Below, in pieces: positions 24,477 to 30,663 of a DNA stretch of 33,086 nt. The notes beneath the pieces were generated by a model. The model did not search any database, was not told the DNA's origin, and saw nothing but the letters and a program-made list of their open reading frames with translations. Origin of the DNA: Patescibacteria group bacterium (GTDB taxonomy: Bacteria > Patescibacteriota > Minisyncoccia > Phycocordibacterales > UBA5272); assembly GCA_030916975.1 (NCBI GenBank), contig JAUPVO010000007.1:1-33086 (forward strand), given 5' to 3'. The position numbers were made by a program, and so were the translations under genes. Position 1 is the stretch's first letter, and each line of letters opens with the position of its first letter.

Positions 24477-24932
24477 ATGGAAAATAAGTTTAAGCAAGCT
24501 CTCGAAAAAGCAAAACAAGTATATCCTCTCCAAGGAATAATTAACTGTCCATATCTTGGTCAAGTAACACTCACTTCAGAAGGTTTCAATCACTTACAGA
24601 ATAAGAGAAACAAAGAGCCAAGGAATATCCGTGAGCAGATACTAAAACTACATCTTTTACCGAAAGCGCTTGAAGTCATTAAGAAGTCAGGTACGCTCCA
24701 AGAATACAGAGTTCAGCTTGAGAAGTTTGGTGGTAAAGGTAAAGACGGATTATCAAAAACAAAGAAAGTTGAGTACTGGGGTTTCCACTCTATCTTCGGA
24801 GAAGCAAAGGACCGTAAGATAGTTGTTGTCGTACGACGTGTCGGTGACGGTAAGATGACATTCTGGAGCGTATTACCTCACAAGAAGTTCAATAATCAAA
24901 AGCTCTACGATGATGGAATAGATGAAGATTAG
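24477..24932 (+). CDS. Hypothetical basic protein (151 aa)
   Basis: ORF in the track; no motif I can assign confidently. Confidence 0.7.
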   Translation: MENKFKQALEKAKQVYPLQGIINCPYLGQVTLTSEGFNHLQNKRNKEPRNIREQILKLHLLPKALEVIKKSGTLQEYRVQLEKFGGKGKDGLSKTKKVEYWGFHSIFGEAKDRKIVVVVRRVGDGKMTFWSVLPHKKFNNQKLYDDGIDED

Positions 24933-24934
24933 AA

Positions 24935-25030
24935 ACAAAAATACCAACCCTTAGAGGTTGGTAACTTTGTTATGCCTGCCTTCAGCTTAGGTAAACCTTA
25001 TCCGAGAAAGGGCTTGCGCCCACAGGCATA
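24935..25030 (-). ncRNA. Candidate structured small RNA, about 95 nt (minus strand)
   Basis: Minus-strand promoter TTGCAT (25064-25059), 17-nt spacer, TAGTGT (25041-25036). A 7-bp closing helix ATGCCTG/CAGGCAT (24972-24978 with 25023-25029) encloses a GGGC-GCAA-GCCC tetraloop hairpin. The terminator TACCAACC-tctaag-GGTTGGTA plus TTTTTGTTT is strong only in the minus orientation. Confidence 0.4.
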
Positions 25031-25110
25031 TGTATACACTACACTATACCCAATTTGTATGCAAGTAGATAGTAAATAAGGCTTGCAAAATAATGGCTTT
25101 GCATAGGTCA

Positions 25111-25719: not shown

Positions 25720-27705
25720 TTAAGTACTCTGTATTGCTTCTCTTAACTTATCACCTAAAACTTTTGCTAATTCTTGAACATTTATATTTGCAACACTGTT
25801 TGGGTAATAATTTTTAACGTGCTCAGTACCTCTTCCTAAACCTAATCCAATTATCTTCACTTTTCCATCCTTTGTAATGTCATCAACGACTTGCTTTAAG
25901 TTGTCAGTACCAAACCCAAAATAACCGTAACCAAAACCTCTTCTATTGTTACCATCTTTGCTATGCTTACCCGAAGGGGCTGGCTGACCGTCCGATATTA
26001 CAAAAAGTATCTTTTGAGTTTCTTCTCTTTTTTTCAACCTATCACTTGTCTGTTCAACGGCCCAGTCGTCATCATTGTGACCCGCGTTACCAGAATAAAC
26101 TTCTGATAACATTTGTTCTGATGAATGTCTTACTGTATCATCCAGCTCTCCTTCAAAATCTTTATAATCATGAATTTCGGTATTAAAACCTGTAACGGAA
26201 AACTTTATGCCGATCTGATTAAGAACTTCAGACAGTACCGCAGATGCTTTGAAAGCTTCGTGTATTTTCCCTCCTATTCGCATTGAACCAGAGAGATCTA
26301 TTAAAAGAGTGATAGCATAGTCAGCTTCTTTTGGTTGCTCTCTTCTCATAAATGCGCCAGTATCAAAAGGTGACGTTCGTGCAACCTCCTCTTGAATTGC
26401 TTTCCCGATATTTATTTTTTTGCCACTCTTATAACCGCTCTCCCATCTAGTATGTTTTCTTTTGTTGAAGATTTCTTGTAGTTCATTTGTAAGATGATCT
26501 ATAAGCGGGGCACACTCGCGAAGCACTTGGGAGTATGAAATTTCTCTTCTATCTCTTTGTTCAAGCTTTTTCTTAAGATCTCCTATCTCTTTATCGTTCA
26601 AGGTAAAAGGCTTCGGTTCATCTATATCCGGAATATCCTCAAGTTCAATTTCTCCTTCATATACATCGACACCTTCTTCTGGTTCTCCACCAGGTTCAAA
26701 CTTTGCCTGTTTAGCTTTCTTAATAGCCTCAGCTTTTGCCTTCTCACCTTCAAAATGTTCGGCAAGTTTTTCCGCAAACTCTTTTATTAGTTTTTTTGCT
26801 TCCTCTTCAGTGAGAGACTTTTTACCCCTTTCATTATTTCCTTGACCACCATTTTTTGCATCTTCAATATCTTTATCGACGAGCGTTTTGAAAAGTGGCC
26901 ACACATCCCTGTAATTTATTTGAAAAGACGCTCGTGCATATTCCGTAATTGTTTCTTCACCTGTAAGTTGTCTACCTTGATGGATCACCCCAGTATCAGC
27001 TTCTTTAAGGCTTGGATATGTATTCCAGCTACGCTTAGTTGCTTCATATGTTTTAAGTACAACATCACGAACATCGTCCGGAAGATCAGGAGACAAATCA
27101 GGTTTTTCACCCACAGAAACTTTATACCACAATTTCATATACTCAAACCCAGCTTGCATAAAACGTGGATTCTTGCCAAACTTTTTGTTTGCTTCTTCCT
27201 GCATTTCTGCTTCAAACTGTGCATCTTCACTTTCAGAGCCGTATGCAAACTTCATTTCGTCACGAAAATGAGGAATATTATCAGCAACAAAGTTATTATC
27301 TCGTGGGTCTTCAATTGCATTCATCATAAAAGAAAAAGCCGGGAGTTGCCATACCTTATCTGGTATCACTTCTTTCACCCTTGAAATTCTCCTGTGACCC
27401 GCTTCGTGACTCATAACAAAACGTAGGAACTCAATAGGTTTATTAAGCAGATCATCAGGATCAGCTCTCACCACATTCTTGTCAAAATCCCAATGCCATC
27501 CTTGACTTGGATTTACCTCAACCTTCATTCCATAATCCTTTCCAATAAAATAAGCTAAAGAAGATAATATATGAAGTCTATCTTCTATGTTTTTTTTATC
27601 ATCCTCGCTAAATCGTTCAAGAGGATTATTATGTGTTAAGGATATGGCTTCTAGACGAGTGTTCATACTAAAATAATACCACGAGAACCTTAATATATAA
27701 GTCAT
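25720..27705 (-). CDS. vWA-domain protein with N-terminal HExxH putative metallopeptidase domain (CobT/NorD/CoxE-like partner of MoxR ATPases)
   Basis: HExxH at FVMSHEAGHRR. C-terminal MIDAS motifs LIDLSGSM, TGFN and VISDGQP. The first ATG overlaps a likely -10 (TGTATAAATG), so the ATG at 27666 (MNTRLE...) may be the real start. Confidence 0.85.
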   Translation of the reverse strand: MTYILRFSWYYFSMNTRLEAISLTHNNPLERFSEDDKKNIEDRLHILSSLAYFIGKDYGMKVEVNPSQGWHWDFDKNVVRADPDDLLNKPIEFLRFVMSHEAGHRRISRVKEVIPDKVWQLPAFSFMMNAIEDPRDNNFVADNIPHFRDEMKFAYGSESEDAQFEAEMQEEANKKFGKNPRFMQAGFEYMKLWYKVSVGEKPDLSPDLPDDVRDVVLKTYEATKRSWNTYPSLKEADTGVIHQGRQLTGEETITEYARASFQINYRDVWPLFKTLVDKDIEDAKNGGQGNNERGKKSLTEEEAKKLIKEFAEKLAEHFEGEKAKAEAIKKAKQAKFEPGGEPEEGVDVYEGEIELEDIPDIDEPKPFTLNDKEIGDLKKKLEQRDRREISYSQVLRECAPLIDHLTNELQEIFNKRKHTRWESGYKSGKKINIGKAIQEEVARTSPFDTGAFMRREQPKEADYAITLLIDLSGSMRIGGKIHEAFKASAVLSEVLNQIGIKFSVTGFNTEIHDYKDFEGELDDTVRHSSEQMLSEVYSGNAGHNDDDWAVEQTSDRLKKREETQKILFVISDGQPAPSGKHSKDGNNRRGFGYGYFGFGTDNLKQVVDDITKDGKVKIIGLGLGRGTEHVKNYYPNSVANINVQELAKVLGDKLREAIQST

Positions 27706-27716
27706 TTATACAGGTA

Positions 27717-27745
27717 TTGACAAACACACATATTATTGTTAGAAT
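27717..27745 (+). promoter_or_regulatory. Promoter of sRNA unit 1
   Basis: TTGACA (27717-27722), 17-nt spacer, TAGAAT (27740-27745). Confidence 0.65.
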
Positions 27746-27751
27746 ACGTCA

Positions 27752-27947
27752 AGCCGAAAAAGGTTGAGAGTGTGTGAATCAGTTCTAGAGAATTGGTTCA
27801 TCGTCAGGCCAGAGCTTGATGTACTTTTTTAACCAAAGGCATTGTTCTTTATATATGTAAAAATAACCCTAGAGGAAAGGAGAGCTGCAATGCAGCAAAC
27901 AATCCGATCGGTCCAAGACCCCCGCCAACCAGTGCGGGGGTCTTTTC
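27752..27947 (+). ncRNA. Candidate small RNA unit 1 (about 195 nt)
   Basis: Runs from its promoter to a terminator. No track ORF; only a 25-codon sORF that reads through the terminator. Local hairpins include TGAATC/GGTTCA and GCTG-caat-CAGC. Confidence 0.5.
27916..27946 (+). terminator. Terminator of sRNA unit 1
   Basis: AGACCCCCGC-caaccagt-GCGGGGGTCT followed by TTTT (10-bp GC-rich stem). Confidence 0.75.
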
Positions 27948-28000
27948 ATATTTATAAAATAGATTAAAAAACCTTTATAAATAAGTCTTTTGTGAAGGCA

Positions 28001-28028
28001 TTGACAAACTTATATTTTCGTGTATACT
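28001..28028 (+). promoter_or_regulatory. Promoter of sRNA unit 2
   Basis: TTGACA (28001-28006), 16-nt spacer, TATACT (28023-28028). Nearly identical to the unit 3 promoter. Confidence 0.65.
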
Positions 28029-28034
28029 ATATAC

Positions 28035-28198
28035 ATACTTTTGGACTGGTCCAGAAGTTACGAGGCTAGTGCCTCGGCCTACAAGCCCAGTGGCCTGAGC
28101 CTCCGGGCGGCCCCGCAAGGCCGTCCGAGCAGGAGTTGAAAATTGAAAACTTTCTAAACTTCAAACCCAATCACTAACTAACACTTAGTGATTTTTTT
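28035..28198 (+). ncRNA. Candidate small RNA unit 2 (about 160 nt, GC-rich core)
   Basis: Consecutive hairpins at 28038-28057 (8 bp) and 28061-28076 (CGAGGC-UAGU-GCCUCG). Then a nested GC-rich helix CTCC-GGG-CGGCC-ccgcaa-GGCCG-TCC-gagca-GGAG. No ORF. Confidence 0.55.
28169..28198 (+). terminator. Terminator of sRNA unit 2
   Basis: AATCACTAA-ctaacac-TTAGTGATT followed by TTTTT. Confidence 0.7.
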
Positions 28199-28249
28199 AT
28201 GCAAAAATCAATAAAATAAGGCTTTTTATGCTAAATCAGGTATAAATAC

Positions 28250-28277
28250 TTGACAAAGTTATATATTCGTGTATACT
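28250..28277 (+). promoter_or_regulatory. Promoter of sRNA unit 3
   Basis: TTGACA (28250-28255), 16-nt spacer, TATACT (28272-28277). Confidence 0.65.
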
Positions 28278-28283
28278 TATATC

Positions 28284-28421
28284 AGATAGTTCTTTTTTTA
28301 AAGTGTTTTGTCCCCCAGAGGAGAGAAAACACTTAAGGTACGGAAAAGTTCCCGTGACGGGCTAGAGCTTCGTCACGGCGGACAACACCCCTTAATCTTA
28401 AATAAGATTAAGGGGTTTTTA
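28284..28421 (+). ncRNA. Candidate small RNA unit 3 (about 135 nt)
   Basis: Helix AAGTGTTTT...AAAACACTT with the loop GTCCCCCAGAGGAGAG. Then an 8+3-bp hairpin CCGTGACG-GGC-UAGA-GCU-CGTCACGG (28352-28378), followed by CGGACAACACCCC leading into the terminator. Confidence 0.55.
28388..28420 (+). terminator. Terminator of sRNA unit 3
   Basis: 12-bp stem CCCCTTAATCTT-aaat-AAGATTAAGGGG followed by TTTTT. Confidence 0.8.
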
Positions 28422-28438
28422 TTATCTTAAAATTGCTC

Positions 28439-28467
28439 TTGACAAAACAGTTTCTATGGTATATACT
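28439..28467 (+). promoter_or_regulatory. Promoter of sRNA unit 4
   Basis: TTGACA (28439-28444), 17-nt spacer, TATACT (28462-28467). Confidence 0.65.
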
Positions 28468-28473
28468 CTGTAG

Positions 28474-28818
28474 CAGGTTGCTAGGGTGTGTAAGATCCCC
28501 ACGATCAAACACATTCGTTGTTGGTTCTTAGAAAGAGCTAACAAATGCACTGTTCTTTAGTGGGAAATGGAGAGTTTCTGGCCTTAAAGCTCCAGAGAGT
28601 GCTAAGGCAAAAAGTTTTTGTGTTATAATCTGTTCTCGTTTCTCTTAGATTTCTGAGGTTTGCATAGTTGAAGTACCGCGACAAAGACCGCAAGGTCCAA
28701 GTCGCACAAAAAGTTCTTTTGGAAGTCAGTAGGTAGAGTAAGTAAGGAAAACCGGCGCGGTGAGGCTAGAGCCGAGCCACGACGGACACAACACCCAATT
28801 TTAAATTGGGTGTTTTTA
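28474..28818 (+). ncRNA. Candidate small RNA unit 4 (about 345 nt, possibly two units 4a/4b)
   Basis: No ORF. An internal weak terminator-like hairpin (28581-28608 plus AAAAAGTTTTT) is followed directly by an extended -10, TGTTATAAT (28621-28629). The 3' end carries the GGC-UAGA-GCC hairpin (28764-28773) and CACGACGGACACAACACCC, as in unit 3. Confidence 0.5.
28791..28817 (+). terminator. Terminator of sRNA unit 4
   Basis: ACACCCAATT-tta-AATTGGGTGT followed by TTTT. It ends 4 nt before the AAA+ gene stop codon (28821-28823). Confidence 0.75.
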
Positions 28819-28820
28819 TT

Positions 28821-30275
28821 TTAGACTATCTCCCAGGTAAAATCTGAAGTAGTGAGTAAACCTTGTTCAAGAGATTGTTTAAATCCGTCATCAGGAAGAG
28901 TTGTTTTTAAGTGGAGATGTTTACCTTCTGCTTTTATAGCTTCAAGTTCTGTATTGCTAAGTGGGATTGTTGGCAACTCAACAGTATCAAGAGTAAATGA
29001 TGAGATACCTAAACGTGTAGTTGTGTCAGATATAAACTCACGTGGACCACGCACATTACTTCCTAAAATCTTAAGAGCTTCCCTTAACTTATTACCAAAT
29101 TCCTTTTTATTCTTTGGTCCAGTTGGCTGAATTGTATCTGGGGTGGCCCCAAAAGATCCTAAGCCTTGTCTGCTTGGATTATCTACGGGCTTATAATCAA
29201 CTTTTATTATCATTTCCTCAAGCAATGCCTTGTCTCGTGGATCAAGAACTTTTCCAGCATAAAAATAGCGGAGTGCTTCACGAGTAACTTCAGCAATATC
29301 TCCTGTGTAGAACTTTGATATATAGGCGAAAATCCTTCTTGGTTCTTCTCGGTCATCAAAAGAAAACTTCTGACGTTGGTTATTAGCTATTTTCTTTTCC
29401 TCTATCATCTTTTGAGCTGCTTCGTGGAACGCAATATACTGGGTAACTATTTCTTGCATTCCAGGTATTTCACCAAGTCTTTCCTGTGGAAAGGATACAT
29501 CGTTTGAACGAGTAATTTTTTCTTTTGTAGTATCAACAGCAGTTTCATTTCCTCCAAGACCCGAAAGCGCTAGCACCCCAGCCTTGAAAGTACTCTGCGG
29601 AACTTTATCTGCTAACTTGTGATATGACCAACGGCGTATCTGTGCAGGATCAAGTGGCTCTCTATCTGCAAAACCTCCACCTGCGGGGTTAGTAAGTGCT
29701 ATGATTTTAAGTGCTTCAGATTTTACCTCCAAGACTTCATTACCATCTTCGGTAAGAGTTACTGTACCACTTCGCTTGTAAGCATCAAGAACTTCGTGAA
29801 GTCTAATAATGACCCCAGGGTGTGCTGAGTTATATTCATCCAAAATAAGGACCTTAATTTTACCTTCTTCAAAGCGGAGAGCTTTAGTAACAGAACCGTC
29901 AGCAAAAATATACTTAGGGTCGCTTTCATCTCTTTGGTTTGGGTTTGGGGTATATTTACCCATTAGGTCTGCTGGGTCAGTATGATTGTTAAGGTTTTGA
30001 TAATGAACCTCGTAACCAAGTTCGGCACACATCTTCTTTACTGCTGTTGTTTTACCAAGTGATGTACCTCCTTCAATAAGGACAGGTTCAGACAGAGCCC
30101 ACGATGTTGCTATTGTTCTTTCTACGTCTCTTGAAAAAGAGTCCTCTACATAATCTTTGAAGGTTTCAACTTTTGGGGCGGTTTCTCTACGCTCTGCAAG
30201 AGGCAACTTAACACCCATATACTCTTTATACTTAGCGTCATCAGCTTTTTCAATGTGTGATAGTTTTTCTTGCAT
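28821..30275 (-). CDS. MoxR/CobS-type (AAA_5-like) AAA+ ATPase
   Basis: Walker A LIEGGTSLGKTT, Walker B VLILDEYN, sensor ALTNP. 484 aa with a C-terminal extension of unknown fold. Confidence 0.85.
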   Translation of the reverse strand: MQEKLSHIEKADDAKYKEYMGVKLPLAERRETAPKVETFKDYVEDSFSRDVERTIATSWALSEPVLIEGGTSLGKTTAVKKMCAELGYEVHYQNLNNHTDPADLMGKYTPNPNQRDESDPKYIFADGSVTKALRFEEGKIKVLILDEYNSAHPGVIIRLHEVLDAYKRSGTVTLTEDGNEVLEVKSEALKIIALTNPAGGGFADREPLDPAQIRRWSYHKLADKVPQSTFKAGVLALSGLGGNETAVDTTKEKITRSNDVSFPQERLGEIPGMQEIVTQYIAFHEAAQKMIEEKKIANNQRQKFSFDDREEPRRIFAYISKFYTGDIAEVTREALRYFYAGKVLDPRDKALLEEMIIKVDYKPVDNPSRQGLGSFGATPDTIQPTGPKNKKEFGNKLREALKILGSNVRGPREFISDTTTRLGISSFTLDTVELPTIPLSNTELEAIKAEGKHLHLKTTLPDDGFKQSLEQGLLTTSDFTWEIV

Positions 30276-30279
30276 AGTG

Positions 30280-30663
30280 TTATTCAGATTGGATTGTTAT
30301 TCCACCTAAAGACAGCCAGTTTCTTCCTTTTGTTTCCTCAGATTGAATAAAATCTTGAGATAGTATCATTATAAAATTAAGGTTTTCATATTTAGGAGAA
30401 ATGAAGGTTTCATTTATTTGAACTGACCCTGAAGAAAAACCCGTCACGAAATCAAACACTGAAACAGGGTCACTTATTTTTTTAGAAGAGATATAAAAAT
30501 TACCTCCTAGCCAAAACTCTTGTGCAAGTTCTTGGATATTTGCGTTTGTTTTGAACTTTTTTGAAAGAAGATGTTCTTCAACTTTTAAGGTGTGAGCTTC
30601 GTCTAATGTGATGATTATTCCTGGCTCGTGAGCACACTTGTTTTTAGTTAGAAAGTCTTCCAT
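30280..30663 (-). CDS. Hypothetical 127-aa protein, translationally coupled upstream of the AAA+ gene
   Basis: The stop at 30280 is 4 nt from the AAA+ ATG (30275). No motif recognised. Confidence 0.65.
   Translation of the reverse strand: MEDFLTKNKCAHEPGIIITLDEAHTLKVEEHLLSKKFKTNANIQELAQEFWLGGNFYISSKKISDPVSVFDFVTGFSSGSVQINETFISPKYENLNFIMILSQDFIQSEETKGRNWLSLGGITIQSE

What the first reader, a model, noticed from the sequence alone, without database searches (positions are those of the whole stretch)
27706..28820. Four tandem promoter-to-terminator small-RNA units inserted antisense between a MoxR-type AAA+ gene and its vWA partner
This 1.1-kb gap has no ORF in the six-frame track. On the plus strand I read four head-to-tail units. 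Each has a TTGACA -35, a 16-17 nt spacer and a TAGAAT or TATACT -10. Each then has 130-345 nt of hairpin-rich sequence that is more GC-rich than its surroundings. Each ends in a strong intrinsic terminator (10-12 bp stem plus a T-run). The promoters of units 2 and 3 are almost identical (TTGACAAACTTATATTTTCGTGTATACT versus TTGACAAAGTTATATATTCGTGTATACT). AAA+(MoxR/CobS) and vWA genes are normally adjacent and co-transcribed. Here they are split by an RNA array transcribed head-on toward the AAA+ gene, and the last terminator ends 4 nt from its stop codon. I do not recognise any of the four RNAs as tRNA, tmRNA, SRP, 6S, RNase P or a CRISPR/tracr element. A dense array of independently and strongly transcribed structured RNAs embedded in an ATPase/vWA/metallopeptidase module could be an RNA-protein system. 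Possible roles include decoy or scaffold RNAs, Y-RNA-like partners of a vWA protein, and phage or anti-phage regulators.
Basis: partly seen in the sequence, partly recalled or inferred. Interest (0 to 1): 0.85.

Follow-up and report, generated by a model that had tools for sequence, protein, structure and literature searches.

The report
Cluster of four new small-RNA genes
Four separately transcribed, folded small RNAs of unknown families sit back-to-back between two partner protein genes in an uncultured ultra-small (Patescibacteria) bacterium; the same arrangement is kept in all its close relatives, which makes it one of the first conserved regulatory-RNA loci seen in this group, but a working link to the neighbouring proteins is not shown.

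Summary
On the + strand of the gap there are four near-consensus sigma-70 promoters (11/12 matches each). Each is followed by 137-344 nt of structured sequence and an intrinsic terminator. The gap is 27667-28820, because the conserved vWA start is at 27666. The contig is a cellular Patescibacteria (CPR) genome, not a phage. None of the units matches any Rfam 15 family, tRNA or tmRNA.

In all 10 further distinct loci of the same clade (AAA+ identity 59-88%), the AAA+-to-vWA gap holds 1-4 such units, 27 in 11 loci, always antisense to the genes. Genes outside the p127-AAA+-gap-vWA cassette differ in every locus. The RNA bodies are more conserved (81-90%) than four-fold sites of the neighbouring genes (50-69%). 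Indels break reading frames but keep stems, and unit 2 shows compensatory changes.

The four units are not copies of each other. They share one motif, hairpins capped by a YWGN tetraloop usually closed by C-G (10.3/kb versus 1.5/kb in controls).

In all but two of the roughly 65 other Patescibacteria loci that held both genes, the proteins lie in vWA-p127-AAA+ order, and none of the ~75 other loci held such RNAs. Most likely this is an island of new trans-acting, protein-binding small RNAs. An RNA-protein machine with the AAA+/vWA pair remains a minority possibility.

The parts
25720..27666 (-). vWA/MIDAS protein gene (648 aa) with an N-terminal HExxH (HEGGH) region. It is transcribed away from the RNA array.
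   Evidence: Pfam CobT_C/VWA. The exact 648-aa protein P0131 is in the database. H87 E88 G90 H91 are invariant. PDB sequence and fold matches are to the Midasin MIDAS domain, NorD and CobT.
27673..27681 (-). Predicted extended -10 box (TGgTATTAT) 6 nt upstream of the vWA ATG. This implies the gene has its own promoter and a leaderless mRNA (inferred).
   Evidence: A TGnTAnnnT box at the same distance is present in the relatives (read). The same -10-next-to-ATG layout is seen at many other genes of the window.
27717..27745 (+). Promoter of unit 1 (TTGACA-17-TAGAAT, with TG before the -10).
   Evidence: 11/12. Conserved in L005.
27752..27947 (+). Unit 1 RNA (~195 nt), with terminator at 27915-27944. 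YWGN hairpins at 27774-27801 (UAGA, 12 bp) and 27802-27821 (CAGA, 8 bp).
   Evidence: Fold z -4.98. It is 90.4% identical to L005 U1. In L005, matching 1-nt deletions on both arms of the terminator stem keep the hairpin and shift the frame of the only SD-led ORF. Hairpins listed.
28001..28028 (+). Promoter of unit 2 (TTGACA-16-TATACT).
   Evidence: Conserved in L001, L002, L004, L005 and L006.
28035..28198 (+). Unit 2 RNA (~164 nt). It has three consecutive YWGN-capped hairpins (28037-28058 CUGG, 28061-28076 UAGU, 28092-28101 CUGA), a GC-rich hairpin, an AGGAG motif and an A+T-rich terminator at 28171-28198.
   Evidence: Fold z -4.39. It is the most widely kept family, present in 10 of 11 loci. 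Nine pairs change on both sides against 2.5+/-1.4 in shuffles.
28250..28277 (+). Promoter of unit 3 (TTGACA-16-TATACT), 26/28 identical to the promoter of unit 2.
28284..28421 (+). Unit 3 RNA (~137 nt). It has a 5' AGUUCUUU motif, a hairpin capped by C(UAGA)G at 28359-28370, an ACA-rich linker and a terminator at 28387-28416.
   Evidence: Fold z -7.10. Homologues in L001 and L005 are 81-82% identical. 3' module folds are.
28439..28467 (+). Promoter of unit 4 (TTGACA-17-TATACT).
   Evidence: Conserved in L001 and L005.
28474..28819 (+). Unit 4 RNA (~344 nt). YWGN hairpins at 28553-28566, 28589-28600 and 28764-28773. CU-rich GUUCUCGUUUCUCUU core. 3' module of GGCUAGAGCC hairpin, GGACACAAC linker and terminator at 28790-28814, ending 3-4 nt from the AAA+ stop codon.
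   Evidence: Fold z -4.09. A unit in this position and with this 3' module is present in all 11 loci. The alignment with L005, L002 and L004 shows indels that are not multiples of three.
28821..30275 (-). AAA+ ATPase gene (484 aa, AAA_5/MoxR class, closest to Midasin AAA modules), convergent with the RNA array.
   Evidence: Pfam AAA_5. PDB: Midasin 7.9e-32, CobS 8.5e-7, NorQ 3.3e-4. 238 homologues, mostly in Patescibacteria.
30280..30663 (-). 127-aa protein gene of unknown fold, always directly upstream of the AAA+ gene. It is the third member of the conserved protein cassette.
   Evidence: No Pfam, NCBIfam, PADLOC or PDB match. The AlphaFold model is poor (pLDDT 38).

Best explanation
The gap is a small-RNA gene island. 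It holds four different, independently and probably strongly transcribed, structured non-coding RNAs of previously undescribed families, in a Patescibacteria genome.

Each RNA is made from its own near-consensus sigma-70 promoter and ends at its own intrinsic terminator. The RNAs are built from hairpins that display one shared element, a YWGN tetraloop (C/U, A/U, G, N), usually closed by a C-G pair and often in the form GGC-YWGN-GCC. Most units end in a common 3' module: such a hairpin, an ACA-rich single-stranded linker, and the terminator.

The most likely mode of action is in trans. The repeated hairpins serve as binding sites that hold or titrate one RNA-binding protein. This works like CsrB/RsmZ or Y RNAs but uses a different motif and an unidentified partner.

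The island lies between the AAA+ and vWA genes because this clade rearranged the ancestral vWA-p127-AAA+ operon. It has stayed there since.

Shown: the units, their conservation, their non-coding nature, the shared motif and the synteny. Inferred: expression level, protein binding, and any relation to the flanking proteins.
For: - **Promoters and terminators.**
- **Stable folds.**
- **Conserved arrangement.** There are 27 units in 11 distinct loci, all on the strand opposite the cassette genes, with 1-4 units per locus.
- **Purifying selection.** Unit identities of 81-90% compare with 56-69% at four-fold sites of p127, AAA+ and vWA in the same genome pairs.
- **Non-coding.** Indels of 1, 2, 4 and 5 nt occur in unit 4. 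One-nt indels break the mini-ORFs of unit 2. In L005, matching 1-nt deletions on both arms of the unit 1 terminator stem keep the hairpin and shift the frame, and the stop codon of that ORF lies beyond the terminator U-tract.
- **Structure of unit 2.** 91% of cells are paired and 9 pairs change on both sides, against 2.5+/-1.4 in shuffles (0/500) and 1-3 in slid controls.
- **Shared motif across relatives.** There are 57 YWGN-capped hairpins (>=4 bp) in 5,557 nt of RNA strand, or 10.3/kb. Controls give 1.5/kb over 236 kb, and the opposite strand has 9. The stems differ widely in sequence.
- **Shared motif in the window.** 16 hairpins against 4.3+/-2.1 in 1,000 dinucleotide shuffles. GGCYWGNGCC occurs 4 times against 0.22 expected.
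- **Four different RNAs.** No cross-unit similarity is detected.
- **Not catalogued.** No Rfam family matches in the window or in 10 relatives.
Against: - No expression data were available, so transcripts and their ends are predictions.
- No RNA-binding protein was identified, so the protein-binding role rests on analogy with multi-hairpin decoy RNAs.
- The alignments are shallow (2-10 sequences per family). Covariation is convincing only for helix 1 of unit 2.
- The conserved 5' AGUUCUUU and internal CU-rich stretches could instead be base-pairing seeds.
- Only about 10 kb per relative was visible, so I cannot say whether these RNA families occur elsewhere in the genomes.
Confidence: 0.6

Rival explanations
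1. RNA-protein machine. The small RNAs are cofactors, scaffolds, decoys or substrates of the flanking Midasin-like AAA+ ATPase, its MIDAS/vWA-HExxH partner and the 127-aa protein. The locus would then encode one ribonucleoprotein system.
For: The order p127-AAA+-RNA array-vWA is kept in 11 of the 12 distinct loci examined at 59-100% AAA+ identity (L089 departs, see below), while the genes on both outer sides differ in every locus. The first RNA promoter sits back-to-back with the predicted vWA promoter, and the last terminator abuts the AAA+ stop codon. The nearest structural relatives of the proteins are Midasin AAA and MIDAS modules, which remodel an RNP, the pre-60S ribosome (the function is from established knowledge of Rea1/Mdn1).
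Against: The same three-protein module is present without any such RNA within about 4 kb in the ~75 other loci examined, in vWA-p127-AAA+ order in nearly all that held both genes. Those loci have no YWGN-hairpin cluster, no unit 2 homologue by covariance model, and no array in the two loci with AAA+-before-vWA order. No RNA-binding domain was recognised. The vWA protein has an HExxH region and a MIDAS domain, and no Ro60 appears among the 50 Foldseek matches listed. If selection keeps AAA+ and vWA adjacent, as it does across the phylum, genes lying between them would stay linked without any functional tie. In L089 (61% identity) the vWA gene is inverted directly after AAA+ with no array between them.
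Confidence: 0.15
2. Base-pairing regulators. The units are trans-acting antisense small RNAs, in the manner of LhrC, csRNA or RoxS. Their conserved CU-rich stretches (5' AGUUCUUU, GUUCUCGUUUCUCUU) would pair with purine-rich mRNA sites, and the hairpins would mainly give stability.
For: GTTCTTT occurs four times within the array (27844, 28289, 28552, 28713) and recurs at or near the 5' end of unit 3 and unit 4-type RNAs in most relatives. Clusters of separately transcribed small RNAs with CU-rich seeds are well known (established knowledge).
Against: No preferred target was found. Duplex prediction against 28 translation-initiation regions gave no distinction, and sequence matches between the RNAs and the rest of the window (a complementarity proxy) did not exceed chance, with 13 nt the longest. 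AAAGAAC is not enriched. Most genes of the window lack a Shine-Dalgarno sequence and look leaderless. This reading does not explain the strictly conserved tetraloop, and unit 2 lacks the motif.
Confidence: 0.15
3. Cis-acting insulator or transcriptional interference. The function lies in the act of transcription. Four strong promoters firing against the AAA+ gene would stop read-through into vWA and uncouple or tune vWA expression, and the RNA products would be by-products.
For: All 27 units are antisense to the cassette genes. The vWA gene appears to have its own promoter directly next to the array. The ancestral co-transcribed order has been broken in this clade.
Against: The RNA bodies, and not only the promoters and terminators, are under purifying selection. 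They show compensatory changes and a conserved loop motif. Interference alone does not need these, and one unit would suffice, as in L007.
Confidence: 0.07
4. Ordinary known RNAs or missed small proteins. The units would be divergent 6S, SRP, RNase P or tmRNA genes, or would encode micro-proteins.
For: Unit 1 has an SD-like GGAAAGGAG 7 nt before an ATG, and the 9-nt string GAGGAAAGG recalls RNase P CR-I. Unit 3 gives a weak PyrR-site hit of 32 bits.
Against: No Rfam model reaches even E<=10 for 6S, SRP, RNase P, tmRNA or Y RNA, in the window or in 10 relatives, and ARAGORN finds nothing. The PyrR hit is far below the gathering score of 54, and the nearby phosphoribosyltransferase is PyrE, not PyrR. 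Frames are broken by indels between close relatives. Unit number varies from 1 to 4, which does not fit essential housekeeping RNAs.
Confidence: 0.03

Closest known systems
CsrB/RsmX/RsmY/RsmZ protein-sequestering small RNAs
   Same: They are stand-alone genes with a strong promoter and an intrinsic terminator. The RNA body is a string of hairpins that present the same short motif many times. Several different or paralogous genes occur per genome, sometimes side by side.
   Different: The repeated element here is a YWGN tetraloop closed by C-G, not GGA in a loop. No Rfam Csr/Rsm model matches. No CsrA-like partner is known, and there are only 2-4 motif hairpins per RNA.
Bacterial Y RNAs (YrlA/YrlB) encoded next to rsr (Ro60, a TROVE + vWA protein)
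   Same: One to four structured small RNAs are encoded next to a vWA-domain protein gene, and their number varies between relatives.
   Different: There is no TROVE domain, and the vWA protein has an HExxH N-terminal region. There is no tRNA-like module, no Y RNA or YrlA hit, and the RNAs are antisense to the protein genes.
Clustered, separately transcribed base-pairing small RNAs (LhrC1-4, PrrF1/2, OmrA/B, AbcR1/2)
   Same: The units lie head to tail, each with its own promoter and terminator, in one intergenic region. CU-rich conserved stretches are present.
   Different: Those clusters are paralogous copies of one RNA. Here the four units are unrelated in sequence, and no targets could be predicted.
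MoxR-class AAA+/vWA pairs (Midasin/Rea1, NorQ-NorD, CobS-CobT, RavA-ViaA)
   Same: The flanking proteins belong to this class by sequence and fold.
   Different: None of these systems is known to include dedicated small RNAs. The proteins here score far below the CobS and CobT family cut-offs (31.6 against 558.55 and 51 against 759.05 bits). They also carry an extra HExxH region and a 127-aa partner.

Membership tests
Any Rfam 15 family (6S, SRP, RNase P, tmRNA, Y RNA, riboswitches and others) | Covariance-model score at or above the family's gathering threshold | tested here: not met
   There is no hit in the gap at gathering score in the window or in 10 relatives. At E<=10 there are only chance-level hits, the best being PyrR at 32.2 against 54 bits.
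Bacterial Y RNA / Ro60 (Rsr) module | Neighbouring protein has a TROVE domain (Ro60/Rsr) | tested here: not met
   Pfam finds only CobT_C/VWA. The AlphaFold model (pLDDT 75) has Midasin MIDAS and NorD as its top matches, and no Ro60 appears among the 50 matches listed. The N-terminal region has an invariant HEGGH.
Bacterial Y RNA / Ro60 (Rsr) module | RNA has a tRNA-like domain or matches the Y RNA/YrlA models | tested here: not met
   ARAGORN finds no tRNA-like gene in the gap. No Y RNA or YrlA hit appears at E<=10.
CsrB/Rsm-type sequestering RNA | Many GGA motifs exposed in hairpin loops | tested here: not met
   The loops that recur are CAGA, UAGU, CAGU, CUGA and CAGC, that is YWGN. No Csr/Rsm model matches.
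CsrB/Rsm-type sequestering RNA | A cognate CsrA/RsmA/RsmE protein in the genome | not testable with these tools
   Only 33 kb of this genome and about 10 kb of each relative were available.
Multicopy sibling small RNAs (LhrC, PrrF, Qrr type) | Units are paralogues of one another | tested here: not met
   blastn-short between units of different families gives no match at E<1e-3.
Intrinsically terminated sigma-70 small-RNA gene (generic) | Own promoter, own terminator, no conserved ORF, conserved sequence and structure in relatives | tested here: met
   Frames are broken by indels. Identity is above neutral sites. Compensatory changes are present.
Intrinsically terminated sigma-70 small-RNA gene (generic) | Detected transcript with defined ends | not testable with these tools
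   No transcriptome data are accessible.
Cobaltochelatase CobS/CobT (flanking proteins) | Score above the NCBIfam equivalog cut-off | tested here: not met
   CobS scores 31.6 bits against a cut-off of 558.55, and CobT scores 51 against 759.05.
Known anti-phage defence systems (PADLOC) | Cassette proteins match defence-system models | tested here: not met
   The only matches are weak generic P-loop hits for the AAA+ protein (mad8, E 1.9e-4; PDC-S01, E 2.5e-3). The vWA protein, p127 and the neighbours give nothing.

The most novel reading that the evidence does not exclude
The RNAs are dedicated partners of the Midasin-like AAA+ ATPase, the MIDAS/vWA-HExxH protein and the 127-aa protein. Their C-YWGN-G hairpins would recruit or regulate this remodelling and proteolytic machine. 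The locus would then encode a bacterial AAA+/MIDAS ribonucleoprotein system with its own set of guide, scaffold or decoy RNAs, a combination not described for any MoxR/vWA pair.
Probability: 0.12. Interest if true: 0.85.

Novelty: new variant of a known kind. Interest (0 to 1): 0.55.

Why it matters
My literature searches found nothing on regulatory RNA in Patescibacteria (CPR) or on small RNAs associated with MoxR/vWA genes. These are bacteria with tiny genomes and an epibiotic lifestyle.

This locus offers up to four conserved, well-delimited small-RNA families with a shared, easily mutated hairpin motif, and a ready comparative series of 1-4 units across relatives. It is a practical entry point for finding the RNA-binding protein(s) of this phylum.

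It also flags a near-universal but uncharacterised Patescibacteria protein module: a Midasin-like AAA+ ATPase, a MIDAS/vWA protein with an HExxH motif, and a 127-aa protein. If the RNAs turn out to act with that module, it would be the first RNA-dependent MoxR/vWA system.

Tried and rejected
- **Divergent known RNAs.** Rfam at gathering score and at E<=10 finds nothing, and ARAGORN finds nothing.
- **PyrR attenuator** (weak hit on unit 3, pyrF/pyrE 5 kb away). The score is 32 against 54, the phosphoribosyltransferase is PyrE, and the neighbours differ in relatives. Rejected.
- **Small proteins.** Frames are broken by indels, and the SD-led ORF of unit 1 runs through its terminator. Rejected.
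- **Tandem duplication.** There is no similarity between units. Rejected.
- **Ro60/Y RNA analogy.** No TROVE domain is found. Rejected as membership.
- **Phage origin.** There is no match in the phage collection. The unit 2 and promoter patterns in viral contigs gave only chance hits that the covariance model rejects.
- **Finding more relatives.** The exact unit 2 pattern in metagenome contigs gave 0 hits. The protein-based scan returned only the contig already held. The GTDB scan returned only distant relatives at <=51% identity.
- **Target prediction.** RNA duplexfold against 28 translation starts and blastn matching of the units against the whole window gave nothing above chance.
- **Structure of the 127-aa protein.** The model is too poor to use (pLDDT 38).
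- **Arrays in other lineages with AAA+-before-vWA order** (L035, L071). None is present.
Full report
**What the window is.**

The contig is a cellular Patescibacteria (CPR) genome fragment. The AAA+ protein is 100% identical to 'MAG: hypothetical protein QG614_73 [Patescibacteria group bacterium]'. The window carries UvrD, a ComM-like Mg-chelatase ATPase, exonuclease III, RecO, a pseudouridine synthase, PyrF, PyrE and two tRNAs. Nothing points to a phage.

**The observation.**

The + strand of the gap holds four promoters that match the sigma-70 consensus at 11 of 12 positions: 27717-27745, 28001-28028, 28250-28277 and 28439-28467. Only eight sites of that quality exist in 20 kb, and four of them are here.

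Each promoter is followed by structured sequence and an intrinsic terminator. The terminators are at 27915-27944, 28171-28198 (A+T-rich, found by my own scan), 28387-28416 and 28790-28814.

G+C rises to 0.48-0.61 inside the units and falls to 0.23-0.29 between them. All four predicted RNAs fold better than every shuffle, with z -4.1 to -7.1.

There is one correction. The conserved vWA start is the ATG at 27666 (648 aa, an exact database protein). The true gap is therefore 27667-28820.

**Not a known RNA and not coding.**

- No Rfam 15 family reaches its threshold in the window or in ten relatives. At E<=10 only chance-level hits appear.
- ARAGORN finds no tRNA or tmRNA in the gap.
- Between close relatives the units differ by indels of 1, 2, 4 and 5 nt.
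- In L005, matching 1-nt deletions on both arms of the unit 1 terminator stem keep the hairpin but shift the only SD-led ORF. The stop codon of that ORF lies beyond the terminator U-tract.
- The mini-ORFs after the AGGAG motif of unit 2 change frame and length between relatives.

**Conservation.**

I fetched the loci of the AAA+ homologues with 59-88% identity. Ten further distinct loci (L001, L002, L004, L005, L006, L007, L009, L010, L088, L090) all have the order p127-AAA+-gap-vWA, with gaps of 424-1157 nt.

In every one the gap holds 1-4 promoter-to-terminator units on the strand opposite the genes. That makes 27 units in 11 loci. The genes outside the cassette differ in every locus.

Unit identities between the window and L005/L001 are 81-90%. 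Identity at four-fold sites of p127, AAA+ and vWA is 56-69% in the same comparisons, so the RNA bodies are under purifying selection.

For unit 2, which is present in 10 of 11 loci, a seven-sequence alignment gives:

- 91% of cells paired;
- nine pairs changed on both sides, against 2.5+/-1.4 in shuffles (0/500) and 1-3 in slid controls;
- most of this signal in the 5' hairpin.

This is real support, but the alignment is shallow.

**Anatomy.**

The four units are not repeats of each other. No cross-family similarity is detectable.

What they share is a hairpin capped by a YWGN tetraloop, usually closed by C-G and often as GGC-YWGN-GCC. The counts are as follows.

| Comparison | Observed | Control |
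|---|---|---|
| YWGN hairpins (>=4 bp) on the RNA strand of all units | 57 in 5,557 nt (10.3/kb) | 1.5/kb in 236 kb of control sequence; 9 on the opposite strand |
| YWGN hairpins (>=3 bp) in the window array | 16 | 4.3+/-2.1 in 1,000 dinucleotide shuffles (none reaching 16) |
| GGCYWGNGCC in the window | 4 | 0.22 expected |

The stems differ widely in sequence, so the loop rather than the stem is the conserved part.

Most unit 3 and unit 4-type RNAs end in the same 3' module: a YAGN-capped irregular hairpin, an ACA-rich linker and the terminator. Many start with or contain AGUUCUUU. Unit 2 carries three YWGN hairpins in a row and a conserved (A)AGGAG(G) motif.

**Relation to the proteins.**

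By sequence the AAA+ protein is closest to Midasin AAA modules (E 7.9e-32). It is far from genuine CobS.

The vWA protein has a MIDAS-type vWA domain closest to MDN1/Rea1 and NorD. Its N-terminal region carries an invariant HEGGH motif. No Ro60 appears among the 50 Foldseek matches listed, and no TROVE or other recognisable RNA-binding domain was found.

The three-gene module is spread across the phylum. In all but two of the roughly 65 other loci from GTDB genomes and metagenomes that held both genes, the order is vWA-p127-AAA+. The exceptions are L035 and L071.

Across the ~75 other loci examined:

- none has a cluster of C-YWGN-G hairpins;
- none has a unit 2 homologue by covariance model, although the model recovers the diverged copies in L090, L010 and L088;
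- the two loci with AAA+-before-vWA order have no array.

In L089 (61% identity) the vWA gene is inverted directly after AAA+ with no array between them.

The RNA island is therefore an innovation of one clade. It coincides with a rearrangement of the operon.

The vWA gene seems to have its own extended -10 box 6 nt from its ATG. This fits a genome in which many genes look leaderless.

**Interpretation.**

The best-supported reading is an island of new, independently transcribed, trans-acting small RNAs. Their repeated tetraloop hairpins are binding determinants for a common, still unknown protein. This works like CsrB/Rsm or Y RNAs, but the RNAs are not members of those families, because the defining features were tested and not met.

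The conserved linkage to the AAA+/vWA genes can be explained in two ways. One is a functional tie. The other is hitch-hiking: selection keeps the AAA+ and vWA genes adjacent throughout the phylum, so genes lying between them stay put. I cannot separate these with the sequence available. I rate the ribonucleoprotein reading at about 0.12-0.15.

The remaining readings fare as follows.

- Base-pairing regulation through the CU-rich motifs remains possible, but no targets emerged.
- A purely cis-acting insulator does not explain selection on the RNA bodies.
- Known RNAs and small proteins are effectively excluded.

**Verdict.**

This is a real and conserved feature. The RNA families are new and share a distinctive motif, in a phylum where my literature searches found no description of small RNAs. 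The RNA-protein-system interpretation is unproven, and several of its specific suggestions (Y-RNA-like, phage-related) are not supported.

Noticed in passing
window 24964-25035 (+); L001 8920-9065 (-): A fifth conserved non-coding element lies just 3' of the 151-aa ORF (24477-24932) and its terminator-like hairpin (24942-24963). It is 93% identical between the window and L001, although the flanking genes are 72-82% identical. It folds with z -3.6 into a closing stem AUGCCUG/CAGGCAU that encloses a C(UUGC)G hairpin of the same YWGN type as in the array. No consensus promoter of its own was seen.
   Followed up: partly
window gene starts, for example 1524, 2651, 7860, 20413, 23923, 27666, 32423, 32862: Many genes have a TATAAT-like -10 box 6-11 nt upstream of the ATG and no Shine-Dalgarno sequence. 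Only four of 28 starts show a clear GGAG-type site. Leaderless mRNAs therefore look common in this Patescibacteria genome.
   Followed up: no
window 25720-27666 (-), residues 87-91 of the protein: The 'CobT-like' vWA protein carries an invariant HEGGH (HExxH metallopeptidase-like) motif in an otherwise unannotated 440-residue N-terminal region. With the Midasin-like AAA+ protein and a 127-aa protein, it forms a cassette found across Patescibacteria, usually in the order vWA-p127-AAA+.
   Followed up: partly
window 27686-27716 and 27970-28000 (+): A conserved A+T-rich element, YTTTATAAATAAGTCnTTTGTRnAGGYA, lies directly upstream of the -35 box of units 1 and 2. It is also present in L001, L002 and L005, with a related AATAAG(G)CTTTTTATGC before unit 3. 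It could be an UP element or a shared operator, which would suggest co-regulation of the units.
   Followed up: no
L089 815-3678: In one relative (AAA+ 61% identical) the vWA gene is inverted and convergent, 26 nt after the AAA+ stop, with no RNA array between them. The contig ends inside vWA, so it is unknown whether the array moved with the 5' side of vWA.
   Followed up: partly
window 28821-30275 compared with homologues P0014-P0120: The AAA+ protein of the RNA-bearing clade is 484-506 aa long. Most other Patescibacteria homologues are 630-730 aa and carry an extra C-terminal region that the window protein does not match.
   Followed up: no
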